Source: a bacterium (GTDB lineage: Bacteria > Zhuqueibacterota > Zhuqueibacteria > Residuimicrobiales > Krinioviventaceae). From it: DNA of 64,000 bases. The DNA lies in assembly GCA_963693055.1 (NCBI GenBank), contig OY843751.1:5920001-5984000 (forward strand). The letters run 5' to 3'. Shown here piece by piece: positions 32,034 to 52,803 of the stretch. Within the stretch, counting starts at the first letter, position 1. Each line of letters opens with the position of its first letter. The notes below the pieces were generated by a model. It was not told the origin of the DNA and made no database searches. It saw only the letters and a program-made list of their open reading frames with translations. The position numbers and the translations under genes are program-made.

Positions 32034-34697
32034 ATGAACAGTAAATCATTATTACTGCTTATATCTTTATTCATATCGACATTTCTTTTTGTAAACTGTG
32101 GTGAAAAAGTAGATTACAGTCAACTGCCGGCTTATAAAAACCCTACTCTTTTAATAGAAGAACGTGTTGATGATCTTGTCAGCAGAATGACCCTAGAGCA
32201 AAAAGCTTCGCAAATGGTTAACGATGCTCCGGCAATCCCTGAACTGGATATTCCTGCGTATAACTGGTGGAACGAATGTTTGCATGGTGTTGCACGTGCG
32301 GGTAGAGCGACCGTGTTTCCACAGGCCATAGGTATTGCAGCCACCTGGGATACCAAGCACATGTATCAGGTTGCCACAGCCATATCCGATGAAGCAAGAG
32401 CAAAACACCACAACTTTGTCAGGAACGGAAAACACGGAATCTATCAGGGTCTTACGTTTTGGTCACCCAACATTAATATTTTTCGTGATCCTCGTTGGGG
32501 TCGGGGTATGGAAACCTATGGGGAAGATCCCTATCTTACCTCCCGCCTGGGTGTCAATTTCGTAAAAGGCTTACAGGGCAATCACCCAAAATATCTCAAA
32601 GTTGTTGCTACCGTAAAACATTATGCTGTACATAGCGGTCCCGAACCCGATCGTCATACTTTTGATGCCAAAACCAGTGAACGGGATTTGAGAGATTTTT
32701 ACCTTCCCCACTTTAGAACCACCATCATGGAGTCCAAGGCCTATTCTGTCATGTGTGCCTATAACCGTTACATGGGCGAAACCTGTTGCGGCAGTGATCG
32801 ATTGGGCAACAAAATCCTTCGTGATGAATGGGGCTTTGATGGCTATGTGGTTTCCGATTGCGGTGCAATACGTGATTTCTGGAAATATCACAAAGTAGTA
32901 GAAACCCGGCCCGAAGCCGCGGCACTGGCCGTAAAATCCGGTACCGATCTCAACTGCGGCAGCGAGTATCAACAACTGGTTGAGGCTGTTGAAAAAGGAT
33001 TAATTACTGAAGAAGAAATTGATGTCTCTCTGAAACGATTGTTTACAGCAAGATTCAAGCTGGGTATGTTTGATCCCGAAGACATGGTACCATATAGCAA
33101 GATACCATATGATATTGTAGATTGTAAAGCACATCGTGATCTTGCATTAGAGACTGCCAGAAAATCCATGGTACTGTTAAAAAATGACAACAATACCCTC
33201 CCTCTTTCAAAAAATCTAAAAACCATAGCGGTTATTGGTCCCAACACCAACGACCAGGAAGTTTTGCTTGGTAACTATAACGGTTATCCCACAAATCCTA
33301 TTACCCCGTTGCAGGGTATAATCGATAAAGTGGGTGATAACACTCAAGTCAATTACGCACTGGGATGTGAATGGGCAGCAGGTCTACCGGTTTTTGAAAT
33401 CATGCCGGACAGTGTGCTGTTTACCTTAGGCAAGGACGGCAAACGCGTTAACGGATTAAAAGCGGAATATTTTAAAAACAATGAGCTGGAAGGTGAACCG
33501 GTATTCACTCGCATCGATAAAAATGTAGACTTTAACTGGTGGGACAAATCACCGTCTGAAGAACTGGATGATGACAATTTCAGTATCCGTTGGAGCGGTG
33601 AATTTACAGCACCGGTAACCGGCAGCTATTCCATTGGTGGCGAAGCATTTAATGCTTTTAATCTCTATATCAATGGCGAAGAATTTGTTACCTTTAGCGA
33701 TACCCATCATGCAAACAAACGTTACGAAACCATAGACCTGATCAAGGGTGAAACATACCCCATTACTTTTGAATTTATGGAAAGACAGGGAGACGCCTTT
33801 GCGCATCTGATCTGGGCGCCACCGGGACGCGATTACGAATACGAAGCCATAGAAGCTGCCAAAGACGCAGATGTAATCGTACTGGTAATGGGTCTGTCCC
33901 CCCGCCTTGAAGGCGAAGAGATGCGGGTCAAAGTAGAGGGATTTGCCGGTGGTGACCGGCTTACACTCGACCTGCCCGCCATTCAGGAAAATCTGATGAA
34001 AACCCTGAACCGACTGGGTAAGCCCATGGTACTGGTGAACATGAGCGGTAGCGCGGTATCCATTAATTGGGCCGATGAAAACATACCCGCTATCTTACAA
34101 GCCTGGTATCCCGGTCAAGCAGCGGGACAAGCTATTGCCGATGTACTGTTTGGCGATTATAATCCGGGTGGGCGTTTGCCGGTTACCTTTTACAAGTCTG
34201 TTGATCAGCTTCCACCGTTCAAAGAGTACAACCTGGTGAACCAAACCTATCGTTATTTTGATGGTATGCCGTTATATGCCTTTGGTCATGGTATGTCATA
34301 TACCACGTTCCGCTATCATAACCTTGAATTACCGGAACAAATTGAATCGGGTGAAACGGTTAACATCTCAATTGAGGTAGAAAATACCGGTCAAATGGCT
34401 GGTGAAGAAGTTGTTCAACTCTATATATCGGATATAAAAGCGTCTGTTCCTACGCCTATTCGTACTTTGCAGGGATTCAAACGGATTTATCTGGAACCCG
34501 GTAAAACAAAAACCGTAAAATTCACCCTGGATCCGCGACAACTTTCATTTACCAATAAAGAAGATCTGCGTATTGTTGAACCGGGGTTGTTCAAAGTTTC
34601 AGTAGGTGGTAAACAACCGGACGTGCCTGGTCCCTCTACCACAGACGTAATAACCAGCCAGTTCGAGGTCACCGGCAAAACGTTTTATGTAGAATAA
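32034..34697 (+). CDS. GH3 beta-glucosidase/xylosidase with PA14 insertion and Fn3-like C-terminus (lipoprotein)
   Basis: WWNECLHGV, RDPRWGRG.ETYGEDP, KHY, VSDCGAI nucleophile motif, PA14 segment DFNW...FSIRWSG. Confidence 0.95.
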   Translation: MNSKSLLLLISLFISTFLFVNCGEKVDYSQLPAYKNPTLLIEERVDDLVSRMTLEQKASQMVNDAPAIPELDIPAYNWWNECLHGVARAGRATVFPQAIGIAATWDTKHMYQVATAISDEARAKHHNFVRNGKHGIYQGLTFWSPNINIFRDPRWGRGMETYGEDPYLTSRLGVNFVKGLQGNHPKYLKVVATVKHYAVHSGPEPDRHTFDAKTSERDLRDFYLPHFRTTIMESKAYSVMCAYNRYMGETCCGSDRLGNKILRDEWGFDGYVVSDCGAIRDFWKYHKVVETRPEAAALAVKSGTDLNCGSEYQQLVEAVEKGLITEEEIDVSLKRLFTARFKLGMFDPEDMVPYSKIPYDIVDCKAHRDLALETARKSMVLLKNDNNTLPLSKNLKTIAVIGPNTNDQEVLLGNYNGYPTNPITPLQGIIDKVGDNTQVNYALGCEWAAGLPVFEIMPDSVLFTLGKDGKRVNGLKAEYFKNNELEGEPVFTRIDKNVDFNWWDKSPSEELDDDNFSIRWSGEFTAPVTGSYSIGGEAFNAFNLYINGEEFVTFSDTHHANKRYETIDLIKGETYPITFEFMERQGDAFAHLIWAPPGRDYEYEAIEAAKDADVIVLVMGLSPRLEGEEMRVKVEGFAGGDRLTLDLPAIQENLMKTLNRLGKPMVLVNMSGSAVSINWADENIPAILQAWYPGQAAGQAIADVLFGDYNPGGRLPVTFYKSVDQLPPFKEYNLVNQTYRYFDGMPLYAFGHGMSYTTFRYHNLELPEQIESGETVNISIEVENTGQMAGEEVVQLYISDIKASVPTPIRTLQGFKRIYLEPGKTKTVKFTLDPRQLSFTNKEDLRIVEPGLFKVSVGGKQPDVPGPSTTDVITSQFEVTGKTFYVE

Positions 34698-34719
34698 ATA
34701 CCTGAACAAACTCAAATTT

Positions 34720-34752
34720 AAACGTGGCAGAAGAACCTCTGTCACGTTTTTT
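34720..34752 (+). terminator. Rho-independent terminator after GH3
   Basis: AAACGTGGCAGA / TCTGTCACGTTT stem followed by a T run. Confidence 0.7.
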
Positions 34753-34779: not shown

Positions 34780-34808
34780 GCCCACGGATAACACAGATAA
34801 TCACAGAT
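34780..34808 (+). repeat. Left 29-bp inverted repeat of the GxxExxY unit (3 x CACRRAT)
   Basis: GCCCACGGATAACACAGATAATCACAGAT; 21/29 identical to the reverse complement of 35205-35233. Confidence 0.8.
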
Positions 34809-34821
34809 TTTATAAAAGTAT

Positions 34822-35190
34822 TTACCGTTTATACTCTACTTTAGGATATTGTCCAAAATTTACAAGCAATCCTAATTTAAAATTTGTTGCATTCAGATAA
34901 TTTAATACCTGTGATTGATGTTCTTTCAATAATTGAGATACAGACTTGATCTCTACTATTATTTTACCATAACAAATAAAATCTGGTTTGAATGTTTTAT
35001 TTAATATCATGTTTCGATATGTTAACTGAATTTCTTTTTGCGAACAAAAAGGAATTTGTTGATATTGAAATTCAATTTCCAGACACTCTTGATATACTGC
35101 TTCAAGAAAACCAGATCCCATTTGATTATAAACCTGAAAACAGGCACCTAATATTTTATAACTTTCCTTGTTATAAATCAAATCATTCAT
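34822..35190 (-). CDS. GxxExxY protein (PD-(D/E)xK nuclease-like)
   Basis: GSGFLEAVY, FKPDF...IIVEIK, Q..NYL, GLLVNFG; ATG at 35190 with a G-rich RBS. Confidence 0.93.
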   Translation of the reverse strand: MNDLIYNKESYKILGACFQVYNQMGSGFLEAVYQECLEIEFQYQQIPFCSQKEIQLTYRNMILNKTFKPDFICYGKIIVEIKSVSQLLKEHQSQVLNYLNATNFKLGLLVNFGQYPKVEYKR

Positions 35191-35204
35191 AATTCCCCCT
35201 TTTA

Positions 35205-35233
35205 ATTCGTGCATATTCGTGATATTCGTGGGC
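35205..35233 (-). repeat. Right 29-bp inverted repeat of the GxxExxY unit (3 x CACGAAT)
   Basis: Minus strand reads GCCCACGAATATCACGAATATGCACGAAT, directly upstream of the RBS. Confidence 0.8.
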
Positions 35234-35408
35234 ATCTTTTACATTTATGTATCCTTCATGATATTTAAATTATGTAGATAAATCTCTGTGATATTATATT
35301 ACAAAATTTAATTTATTGCAATCCCTTTTAAATCAAAAACAGAAATCCCCTCTTGCAGAATTTCATAATTATTTGTAATATGGGGTTCACAAATTTATAA
35401 AAACAAAT

Positions 35409-35825
35409 ATGATCGAAATCAATCCTACAACCTTTATAGACGAGTCAGAACTCTCGTTTTCAACTTCCCGCAGTGGTGGTCCAGGCGGTCAGCATGTGAA
35501 CAAGGTCAATACCAAGGTGTTGCTGGAATTTGACGTATTGAATTCGCAGTACTTGTCGGATGATCAAAAAGCTCGTATTCAGGAAAAGCTCAGCAACCGC
35601 ATGACCAAAGAGGGAATCCTGCAAATCACCTCGCAGGATTCGCGTAGTCAGTACGCCAACAAGGAAGACGCGATCGAAAAATTTACCGACCTTTTACGAG
35701 AGTCACTCAAAACCCGTCCCAAAAGGCGCAGAACCCGCATCTCAAAGGCCGCAAAACAAAGACGCTTGGATTCAAAAAAACACCGCAGCTCTATCAAACA
35801 AAATCGGGGACGCATACGCTTTTAA
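35409..35825 (+). CDS. arfB: Alternative ribosome rescue peptidyl-tRNA hydrolase ArfB
   Basis: SRSGGPGGQHVNKV, RSQ..N, basic C-terminal tail. Confidence 0.95.
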   Translation: MIEINPTTFIDESELSFSTSRSGGPGGQHVNKVNTKVLLEFDVLNSQYLSDDQKARIQEKLSNRMTKEGILQITSQDSRSQYANKEDAIEKFTDLLRESLKTRPKRRRTRISKAAKQRRLDSKKHRSSIKQNRGRIRF

Positions 35826-35919
35826 CCGCAATAGCCGCCAGATTTAAAATAAATATTGCATATCAGTTCAAAAACTTATACACTGTAATGATGTTTGTTT
35901 AATCATGGAGGTTATTCGT

Positions 35920-37422
35920 ATGTCAAATTTATATAAATTTTCCCGCCGTAATTTTATCCAAACCACAACTACTGCTGCATTTTCCGCTCCCTTTTTCAAT
36001 TGCGGAAAAACCGGTGTAAGCAAACCCATAACCCGTCCCTTTGGCAAACTCGATTTAGAGGTCACCACATTGGGCCTGGGCGGTCAGGCGTCCATCCAGT
36101 GGACACCGGAAGGAATAGATCCCACTGCTATTATCCATAAAGCATTTGAGAAAAAAATAAACTATTATGATACATCCAACCTATACGGTCCCAGTCAACT
36201 CAATTACGGAAAAGCGTTTCGGGAACTGGATCTCATACCCGGAAAATCGGGATACAATGAAGCGTTGCGCAAATCCATCTTTTTAACCAGCAAAACCCGA
36301 ATCCGCTGGGGCAAAGGCGGTTATGAATACAAGGGTGTTAGAAACGGTACCAACGGTCCTGAAGGATCCTTGGCAATCGACGATGTAAAACGCTCACTCA
36401 GCCAGATCTATGGAGACGGTAAAGGCAATTACCCCAAAGGTGCCTATCTGGATATGGTGCTCATTCACAGCATCCGCCGCCTGGAAGAACTGGATGTTCT
36501 CTTTATGGGACTGGATAATACCTCACCAACAGAAGAGCATATCGGTGCACTAGCGGCTCTTCGCGATGTTCGTGACGGCACCAACCTGACCGGCATGAAT
36601 CCCAAAGAGGAAAAGCTGATTCGCCATATCGGTTTCTCCGGCCATTACTCTGCACCGGTGATGATGGAATTTATCCGTCGTGATAAAGATAATATCCTTG
36701 ACGGTATGCTGGTTGCCATTAACAGCAATGACCGGTTGTACATGAACATGCGGCACAATGTAATTCCCGTTGCGGAAGCCAAAAACATGGGCGTGATCGC
36801 TATGAAAGTCTTTGCAGATGGAGCCATGTACAGCAAGGGTGCGCATTTTTCCAATAAACCGGAACATGTCATCCGCAGTGTGGGCACACAAGATCTACCC
36901 AGTCGCCCGCTGATCGAGTACAGTCTTTCCACTCCAGGAGTGCATACCGGTATTATTGGTATTGGTCAGATCGACAATGTTGATCCGAAAAAATGCCAGC
37001 TTGAGCAAAACCTGTCCGCAGCCCAGATTGCAGTGAATGGATTGAGTGCGACCGAGCGCGAACAGATCGAAACCCTGACAAGCCCCATCAAAGACGGCAA
37101 GACCAACTATTTTCAAATTGAGGAAGGCGGTCTCAGCGCAGTGAACGATCCCAATATTGAGCAAAAAGTTGTCGAGGGAAAACGTAACATATTGCTTAGC
37201 TGGAATACAGCATATGCAGGTAACGATCCGGTTAAGGCCTATGAAATCTGGCGAGACAATCAGAAAATCGCCGAGGTTGCACACAAACCCCAAACAACCC
37301 AAACGCCATTTCAATACAAAGATGAACTAAACAATACAGCCGAAATCAAGTATCAGATCAAAACGATTGATACTGCTGGGAATGCGGCATCAACAGAAAT
37401 ACTGAATTTAAAATCCGTATAA
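35920..37422 (+). CDS. Tat-exported aldo/keto reductase with C-terminal Fn3-like domain
   Basis: SRRNF Tat motif; LGLGG, YYDTS..YG, TSK, IGFSGH, IAMKVF; C-terminal W..A..G...YEIWRD...Y.D. Confidence 0.8.
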   Translation: MSNLYKFSRRNFIQTTTTAAFSAPFFNCGKTGVSKPITRPFGKLDLEVTTLGLGGQASIQWTPEGIDPTAIIHKAFEKKINYYDTSNLYGPSQLNYGKAFRELDLIPGKSGYNEALRKSIFLTSKTRIRWGKGGYEYKGVRNGTNGPEGSLAIDDVKRSLSQIYGDGKGNYPKGAYLDMVLIHSIRRLEELDVLFMGLDNTSPTEEHIGALAALRDVRDGTNLTGMNPKEEKLIRHIGFSGHYSAPVMMEFIRRDKDNILDGMLVAINSNDRLYMNMRHNVIPVAEAKNMGVIAMKVFADGAMYSKGAHFSNKPEHVIRSVGTQDLPSRPLIEYSLSTPGVHTGIIGIGQIDNVDPKKCQLEQNLSAAQIAVNGLSATEREQIETLTSPIKDGKTNYFQIEEGGLSAVNDPNIEQKVVEGKRNILLSWNTAYAGNDPVKAYEIWRDNQKIAEVAHKPQTTQTPFQYKDELNNTAEIKYQIKTIDTAGNAASTEILNLKSV

Positions 37423-52772: not shown

Positions 52773-52803
52773 GATCGTGACGGAGATTATCTCCGTCACG
52801 ATC
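52773..52803 (+). repeat. 31-bp REP-like palindrome, copy 2 (perfect)
   Basis: GATCGTGACGGAGAT-T-ATCTCCGTCACGATC. Confidence 0.9.

What the first reader, a model, noticed from the sequence alone, without database searches (positions are those of the whole stretch)
34780..35233. GxxExxY nuclease gene packaged between inverted triple-heptamer repeats: candidate minimal mobile or self-targeting element
Seen: a 454-bp unit holds only an RBS and a GxxExxY gene, bounded by 29-bp inverted repeats. Both ends share one grammar, GCC-CACRRAT-N2-CACRRAT-N3-CACRRAT (left GCCCACGGATAACACAGATAATCACAGAT; right, reverse-complemented, GCCCACGAATATCACGAATATGCACGAAT). All 8 mismatches fall in the RR or spacer positions. 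The right repeat abuts the RBS. The left repeat abuts a second in-frame stop at 34810-34812 (the ORF ends KR*ILL*). The unit sits just after a terminator, between unrelated genes. Known: GxxExxY proteins are PD-(D/E)xK-fold proteins with no established function that I know of. Inference: the heptamers are iterated binding sites and the nuclease mobilises or processes its own ends, forming an element without a DDE or HUH transposase. I saw no target-site duplication.
Basis: partly seen in the sequence, partly recalled or inferred. Interest (0 to 1): 0.78.

Follow-up and report, generated by a model that had tools for sequence, protein, structure and literature searches.

The report
Nuclease cassette that reads its flanks
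A small nuclease-family gene sits between mirror-image arrays of a 7-base word, and across many relatives amino acids in its first helix change together with bases of that word, so the protein likely recognises its own flanks and likely spreads as a selfish cassette, although this copy is truncated and likely decaying.

Summary
The arms are not unique: the genome holds 37 such triplets (control 0), mostly gene-less. Across 210 homologue loci, three protein clades each carry their own heptamer. Residues 10 and 22 predict heptamer positions 5 and 7, and a rule fixed beforehand held on new loci (31/33, 28/30). Arrays track gene presence across genomes, cargo differs between fixed arms in the sister genome, and one homologous cassette has empty sites in a relative. 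No target-site duplication, exact ends or G·U bias appeared, so I favour cutting plus host recombination (homing-like) over transposition or an RNA stem; no activity is shown. This copy is atypical: premature stop (the 'second stop' is the ancestral one), a non-cognate downstream arm, reverse orientation, and no empty site found. Closest known: REPIN–RAYT, with a different enzyme. I found no paper on it in ten searches. This scan reported the same cassette type, and the residue–base link, before on other DNA.

The parts
34822..35190 (-). GxxExxY gene (TIGR04256 / PF13366), 122 aa, PD-(D/E)xK fold; G27 E30 Y33 D70 E80 K82 Q94 present; last strand cut short
35204..35233 (-). Upstream arm, GCC + CACGAAT x3; the class predicted by the protein's Y6/S10/N22
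34780..34809 (+). Downstream arm, GCC + CACGGAT/CACAGAT/CACAGAT; class typical of T10/N22 proteins and common among gene-less arrays of this genome; non-cognate at position 5
35191..35203 (-). Ribosome-binding site region between upstream arm and ATG
34822..34824 (-). Premature TAA; the sister genome G001 reads KRLIL* here; two short-read contigs of one sample match the window letter for letter
34810..34812 (-). Second in-frame TAA, the ancestral stop abutting the downstream arm
35125..35127 (-). Codon for N22, the residue that tracks heptamer position 7 (N with T; K or R with A or G)
35161..35163 (-). Codon for S10, the residue that tracks heptamer position 5 (T with G; S or C with A)
34720..34749 (+). 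Terminator-like hairpin outside the cassette; member of a separate dispersed palindrome family (16 and 13 matches to two overlapping patterns)
32034..34697 (+). GH3 glycosidase, left neighbour, convergent with the cassette gene
35409..35825 (+). arfB, right neighbour, divergent from the cassette gene

Best explanation
This is a truncated, likely decaying copy of a widespread gene-plus-arms cassette whose GxxExxY protein likely binds the heptamer arrays in DNA through its first helix and likely cuts at or beside them, so that host recombination would copy or swap the gene into other arm-bearing sites. Shown: arms flank most homologues; heptamer class follows protein clade and single residues; arrays occur genome-wide without the gene and track its presence; cargo between orthologous arms differs between sister genomes; one homologous cassette fills a stop/start junction that is empty in a relative. 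Inferred: direct binding (about 0.85), selfish mobility of the family (about 0.75), cutting followed by recombination as the route (about 0.45). The cassette usually has no promoter of its own that I could identify and sits in sense inside operons, which would supply expression. The window copy would be a recombinant: a CACGAAT arm with its gene joined to a resident CACRGAT arm.
For: Inverted flanks at 66 of 80 loci, against 0 of 60 far flanks and 3 of 400 shuffles. Arms on at least one side at 184 of 210 loci; both arms of one class at 127 of 133. 12 class changes on the tree against 64 or more in 300 shuffles. Residue 22 agrees with position 7 in 70 of 72 clade-III loci; next best of 58 columns 0.75; at most 59 of 72 in 17,666 simulations on the tree. 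Rule noted beforehand held on new loci: 28 of 30, 31 of 33, 33 of 44; cross-controls p 1.0 and 0.45. No G.U excess on the coding strand: 31 against 32 A.C. Catalytic residues invariant in 48 aligned sequences. Arrays per genome: 32 and 8 with the gene against median 0.5 in 34 without; 47 (n=23) against 9 (n=13) in a second class. Cargo swaps at fixed arms. Arms at 3 of 34 changed junctions and 0 of 179 stable ones. Empty junctions in G255, filled in G159. Direct duplications around 38 of 210 genes. Synonymous divergence from G001 of 0.157 and 0.086 for the two shared genes against about 0.5 for the window's neighbours and a median of 0.325.
Against: No binding, cutting or movement was measured. 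On well-supported branches only 4 to 6 independent pairs exist, so the sign test gives p 0.06 to 0.125. The test loci come from two classes and a few other genomes and are kin; 17 of 47 fell outside the residue-22 rule (other residues or mixed bases). Partner arms share spacer length (0.93 against 0.74) and spacer bases (0.56 against 0.43) more than non-partners, which pairing or common origin could also give. 119 of 152 cassettes are co-oriented with both neighbours, which an RNA-level role also predicts. In arm-selected windows, arm-free junctions also changed often: 24 of 61 against 23 of 39 with arms. Genomes scored without the gene still held up to 71 arrays. The window's downstream arm breaks the residue-10 rule yet is 29 of 30 identical in G001. 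No empty site for this locus; no skipped-joint contig. Low synonymous divergence rests on two genes.
Confidence: 0.5

Rival explanations
1. The protein is a true minimal transposase: it pairs the two arms, cuts at their outer ends and joins the unit to new DNA.
For: Inverted arms with a conserved outer T-rich-(G/A)(C/A)C edge; cognate code; insertion just after stop codons, median 15.5 bp, n=94; empty junctions in G255.
Against: No target-site duplication; indel ends did not match arm ends in the 12 junctions printed; one arm is kept while the other half changes; outward arms and hairpin-gene-hairpin arrays. PD-(D/E)xK enzymes are hydrolases, not strand-transfer enzymes (recalled).
Confidence: 0.15
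2. It works at the RNA level like a 23S rRNA intervening sequence: the arms pair in mRNA and the protein or RNase III cuts the cassette out, sparing the operon.
For: 119 of 152 cassettes are in sense inside operons; the window arms can pair at about -26 kcal/mol; partner spacer concordance; RNase III excision of the Coxiella IVS (PMC4990558, abstract).
Against: No G.U excess (31 against 32 in units; 75 against 101 overall); in-register units match no better than out-of-register ones (3.57 against 3.50 of 4); G/T transversions at position 4 are common; no Rfam match; the window copy is antisense to both neighbours.
Confidence: 0.15
3. The protein binds the arrays as a domesticated or self-regulating factor, and the repeats spread by another enzyme or by host recombination alone.
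For: Upstream arm within 30 bp of the start codon in 63 of 108 loci; pN well below pS in the window gene, 0.024 against 0.157; arrays lie among other palindrome families in variable intergenic regions.
Against: It does not explain the downstream arm; 1 to 13 matches per genome with many fragments; catalytic residues conserved; the genome's two Y1 matches are one with an inner stop and one partial, and no integron integrase passes the cut-off.
Confidence: 0.15
4. The arms are ordinary host repeats and the gene merely landed between two of them.
For: Most arrays in the genome hold no GxxExxY; this copy's two arms are of different classes.
Against: Clade- and residue-specific arm classes, with different classes beside different paralogues in one genome.
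Confidence: 0.05

Closest known systems
REPIN-RAYT systems (Bertels and Rainey 2011, PMC3116915: abstract, outline and 12 passages seen; Di Nocera 2013, PMC3733652: 12 passages seen)
   Same: Single small enzyme gene flanked by repeats; repeat flavours matched to separate enzyme genes; gene-less inverted doublets dispersed between genes; tandem and nested clusters.
   Different: The enzyme is PD-(D/E)xK, not a Y1/HUH tyrosine transposase. Each arm is a tandem heptamer array of period 9-10, not a palindrome. Gene copies turn over, and arms also enclose unrelated cargo.
ORF-bearing 23S rRNA intervening sequences (Coxiella S23p; PMC4990558: abstract and outline seen)
   Same: Small ORF in the loop of a possible long hairpin, inserted in sense in a transcript, often decaying.
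   Different: Not in rRNA; the ORF is a nuclease, not a four-helix bundle; no G.U signature; arm sequence follows protein residues.
Homing endonucleases of PD-(D/E)xK type (recalled; I-Bth0305I appears only as a weak fold hit)
   Same: Proposed route: cut, then copy by host repair; low divergence of the unit relative to flanks.
   Different: No intron or intein; short repeated sites lie in the element's own ends; many loci per genome.
IS / MITE pairs
   Same: Inverted ends, with gene-bearing and gene-less forms.
   Different: No DDE enzyme, no target-site duplication, no exact ends seen.
GxxExxY family (TIGR04256, PF13366 PDDEXK_3)
   Same: The protein is a member.
   Different: Function listed as 'Unknown', with multiple transfers (PMC3424549, one table row seen); flanking arrays are not mentioned in the passages seen.

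Membership tests
GxxExxY / PDDEXK_3 | Score above the curated cut-offs | tested here: met
   139 bits against 35; 142 against 22
GxxExxY / PDDEXK_3 | GxxExxY motif and D...ExK catalytic residues | tested here: met
   G27 E30 Y33 D70 E80 K82; E80 is V in the G001 orthologue
GxxExxY / PDDEXK_3 | Hydrophobic strand after the C-terminal K/E-R | tested here: not met
   The only one of the 110 printed proteins that stops at the conserved KR
GxxExxY / PDDEXK_3 | Nuclease activity | not testable with these tools
   Fold only: best Z 7.7 to Cas4 SSO0001, no Z of 8 or more
REPIN-RAYT | Y1/HUH tyrosine transposase as the cognate enzyme | tested here: not met
   Gene is PF13366; genome has one Y1 match with an inner stop and one partial
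REPIN-RAYT | Each repeat is itself a short palindrome | tested here: not met
   Arms are head-to-tail heptamers, period 9 in 228 of 296 steps
REPIN-RAYT | Dispersed extragenic inverted doublets without the gene | tested here: met
   6 short inward and 5 short outward pairs among 99 arms outside long ORFs; 50 singletons
REPIN-RAYT | Repeat flavour matched to enzyme gene | tested here: met
REPIN-RAYT | Excision intermediates in population reads | tested here: inconclusive
   Only contigs were available; no joint seen
IS / MITE | Terminal inverted repeats | tested here: met
   22 of 30 bases
IS / MITE | Target-site duplication | tested here: not met
   None in the window flanks; the empty sites found are too diverged to judge
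IS / MITE | DDE, HUH or serine transposase | tested here: not met
23S rRNA intervening sequence | Lies inside an rRNA gene and carries an S23p ORF | tested here: not met
   Between GH3 and arfB; no Rfam match
23S rRNA intervening sequence | Conserved RNA stem cut by RNase III | tested here: inconclusive
   Arms can pair but show no G.U excess or in-register covariation; no RNA run listed
Homing endonuclease | Cuts the element-free allele and is copied in by repair | not testable with these tools
   Indirect only: low synonymous divergence and half-swaps
Integron cassette | Integron integrase in the genome | tested here: not met
   9 matches to TIGR02249, none above the cut-off

The most novel reading that the evidence does not exclude
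GxxExxY proteins are the driving enzymes of an undescribed, cross-phylum class of mobile DNA: a 125-aa sequence-specific PD-(D/E)xK nuclease with a simple helix-to-base code that multiplies its heptamer hairpins and turns them into exchange sites through which unrelated genes (restriction, toxin-antitoxin, lipoprotein) enter operon junctions, a transposase-free and integrase-free gene-capture system.
Probability: 0.35. Interest if true: 0.9.

Novelty: new variant of a known kind. Interest (0 to 1): 0.7.

Why it matters
A large family of unknown function gains a predicted substrate and a two-to-three-residue specificity rule that one binding assay can test. It would explain an abundant repeat class in many uncultured phyla, extend the REP-plus-cognate-enzyme design beyond tyrosine transposases, and point to a very small nuclease with adjustable specificity. 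The window copy itself is a poor test object; intact concordant homologues should be used.

Tried and rejected
Empty GH3-arfB site: not found; 18 other arfB loci show neither GH3 nor GxxExxY within 1.5 kb. Excised or skipped form: no joint in contigs of 4 runs from 2 samples; contigs drop rare variants. No RNA holder listed. Assembly error for the early stop: rejected. RNA-stem signature: not found. Homodimer prediction: no verdict. Sequence search of solved structures: only T7 endonuclease I at E 0.6-0.9. Fold searches cannot separate Cas4, BglII-like and resolvase relatives. Defence library: only E above 0.001. Viral contigs: none for a clade-II query, 11 loci for the alignment, 7 with arms. 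The residue-22 R versus K split does not track G within clade I. The Desulfo-type class gave only 2 new loci. Rows dropped: L097 from the folding alignment (inner stop); 15 of 225 loci and 10 of 75 (no full ORF or duplicates); 53 of 127 handles in the array census (size limit). Literature: ten searches found no paper linking this family to repeats; the library lacks most subscription papers, and no supplements were read. PMC12085832 and PMC9756366 were seen as listings only; 10.1101/2021.01.26.428298 as one passage.

Full report
OBSERVATION. The unit is as described: arms at 34780-34809 and 35204-35233 match at 22 of 30 bases, with all mismatches in RR or spacer positions, around an RBS and a 122-aa ORF on the minus strand. 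The protein passes TIGR04256 and PF13366. It folds with pLDDT 94 into a PD-(D/E)xK shape; the best match is Cas4 SSO0001 at Z 7.7, rmsd 3.1, 95 residues, tied with several restriction enzymes. E30, D70, E80, K82 and Q94 are invariant in 48 aligned sequences.

THE ARMS ARE A REPEAT FAMILY. The genome holds 54 CACRRAT-type arrays against 8 and 6 in two shuffles, and 37 triplets of the broader pattern against 0 for the reversed control. It has five GxxExxY genes, each with arm-like words but of different kinds. Among 99 arms outside long ORFs there are inward pairs, outward pairs, direct neighbours and 50 singletons; a few pairs enclose other genes. The adjacent 'terminator' belongs to a different dispersed palindrome family.

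HOMOLOGUES. Of the 80 closest loci (the best of 544 confirmed), 66 have inverted flanks, against 0 of 60 far flanks, 3 of 400 shuffles and 158 of 400 non-partner pairs; 50 face inward, 11 outward, 5 are unclear. In a wider set (210 usable of 225), 184 have arms and 127 of 133 have one class on both sides. Three clades carry CRCRRAG, CRCDGAT and CRCDAAW; the label needs 12 changes against 64 or more in 300 shuffles. The sample was drawn around three queries, so clades are unevenly covered. 119 of 152 cassettes are in sense with both neighbours and 6 are antisense to both, as in the window; the first unit lies a median 15.5 bp after the upstream stop.

A RESIDUE-BASE RULE. An earlier scan note gave the lead that one residue tracks one base. 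Residue 22 tracks position 7 (N with T, K with A) in 70 of 72 clade-III loci, the next best of 58 columns reaching 0.75; residue 10 tracks position 5 in 146 of 153; residue 6 tracks position 4 more loosely. Both traits change 10-12 times on the tree. Independent evolution simulated on the tree reached at most 59 of 72 in 17,666 runs, but the strict test on well-supported branches has only 4-6 pairs and p 0.06-0.125. I wrote the rule down and applied it to 65 new loci, 47 with arms: 28 of 30, 31 of 33 and 33 of 44 agreed, and cross-controls were null. These loci are kin, and other residues occur at position 22. The three residues lie in or just before helix 7-24 of the model; contact with DNA is inferred.

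DNA OR RNA. Mismatches between partner arms give 31 G.U-type and 32 A.C-type pairs on the coding strand, and in-register units match no better than out-of-register ones (3.57 against 3.50 of 4). That fits two independent binding arrays better than a selected RNA stem. Against this, partner spacers agree more than non-partner spacers, and the sense bias is strong.

MOBILITY. All 19 family genomes have matches, 1-13 each, many partial. The sister genome G001 has 8 genes; only two lie as orthologues at the same site. At other sites the arms stay and the content differs: a lipoprotein-like ORF in place of GxxExxY, a different paralogue behind the same arm and RBS, nested cassettes in place of gene-less arms, and a gene-less hairpin of another class behind the same left arm. 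In 40 evenly spaced windows arms marked 3 of 34 changed junctions and 0 of 179 stable ones; in arm-selected windows 23 of 39 arm junctions and 24 of 61 others changed. Indel ends were not at arm ends. In G159 a hairpin-gene-hairpin-gene-hairpin array fills a junction where two loci of G255 have overlapping stop and start codons. Direct duplications flank 38 of 210 genes. Array counts follow gene presence in two classes, with exceptions and incomplete genomes. The two shared genes have synonymous divergence of 0.157 and 0.086, against 0.51 and 0.50 for arfB and GH3, a median of 0.325 in 720 pairs (some spurious ORFs included) and 0.38 in 41 GC3-matched genes, 5 of which fall at or below 0.16. 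This suggests exchange after the species split but rests on two genes.

THIS COPY. Y6/S10/N22 predict CACGAAT, which is the upstream arm. The downstream arm is CACRGAT, the class of T10/N22 proteins, of which G001 has three and G000 none among its five. The copy is one of 6 discordant loci of 133. It stops at KR where G001 reads KRLIL, so the 'second stop' is ancestral; G001's copy has V at E80. Short-read contigs confirm the window letters. Arms and ORF are 95-97% identical to G001, flanks 76-89%. No empty site was found.

MECHANISM. Most likely the protein binds the arrays in DNA and cuts at or near them, and host recombination then copies or swaps the gene between arm-bearing sites. This accounts for half-swaps, chimeric arms, variable duplications and the lack of exact ends. 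Binding, cutting and the recombination route are inferred. Rivals are true transposition, an RNA-level intervening sequence, and a binding-only role.

COMPARISON AND NOVELTY. It works most like REPIN-RAYT (PMC3116915, PMC3733652; abstract or passages seen) but fails membership on the enzyme and the repeat form; it fails IS, IVS and integron tests too. PF13366 is listed as of unknown function (PMC3424549, one row seen). Ten searches found no description of the arms; subscription papers and supplements were not seen. The scan has noted this cassette type in many other genomes, and the residue-base link at least twice. I score it a new variant of a known kind, interest 0.7, for the family rather than for this copy.

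Noticed in passing
window 34720-34749; G000 genome-wide: Dispersed palindrome family CGTGACRGAG-N5-CTCYGTCACG, often beside heptamer arms; further copies fall inside the window near 52776, 57583 and 60489.
   Followed up: partly
window 35263-35289: 70% direct match over 27 nt to the hairpin at 34716-34742; may be a decayed second copy bracketing the cassette, or chance.
   Followed up: no
window 35190-35235 (-): An in-frame ATG upstream lets the upstream arm be read as a 15-aa N-terminal extension.
   Followed up: no
L114, L115 (G000:4596721; G001:C3:33515): Four-helix-bundle (TIGR02436) genes carry different arms, head-to-tail CTGACAA / CTGATAG-type heptamers; the gene differs between the two genomes at one site.
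   Followed up: partly
L116 / L117 (G000:5878432): Shared four-helix-bundle gene also has low synonymous divergence, 0.078 against about 0.39-0.40 for neighbours.
   Followed up: partly
L110 (G000:6492171-6492527): Second G000 GxxExxY has a stop at the catalytic lysine codon; the G001 orthologue is intact there.
   Followed up: yes
L172:3988-5061 and L127:10450-13300 (G001): Arm-adjacent variable cargo includes what look like a BrnT/BrnA-type toxin-antitoxin pair and an Mrr-type nuclease (labels recalled from sequence, not scanned).
   Followed up: no
L164:4943-5598; L160:16418-16850 (G001): Tandem gene-less units of 335 and 354 bp built of back-to-back arms, like REPIN clusters.
   Followed up: partly
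L007:1205-1480 (G016): Nested hairpins near arfB: a CACGAAT pair inside a CGCAAAG pair, no gene.
   Followed up: no
L435-L443 (viral contigs): 7 of 11 viral loci with a GxxExxY match carry arms, so phages or prophages may carry the cassette between hosts.
   Followed up: partly
L448 (G257 junction): The junction filled by GxxExxY cassettes in G159 holds a different short-repeat spacer in G257.
   Followed up: no
window 35905-37422: 505-aa aldo/keto reductase-like protein with Tat-like signal and an unassigned C-terminal domain.
   Followed up: no
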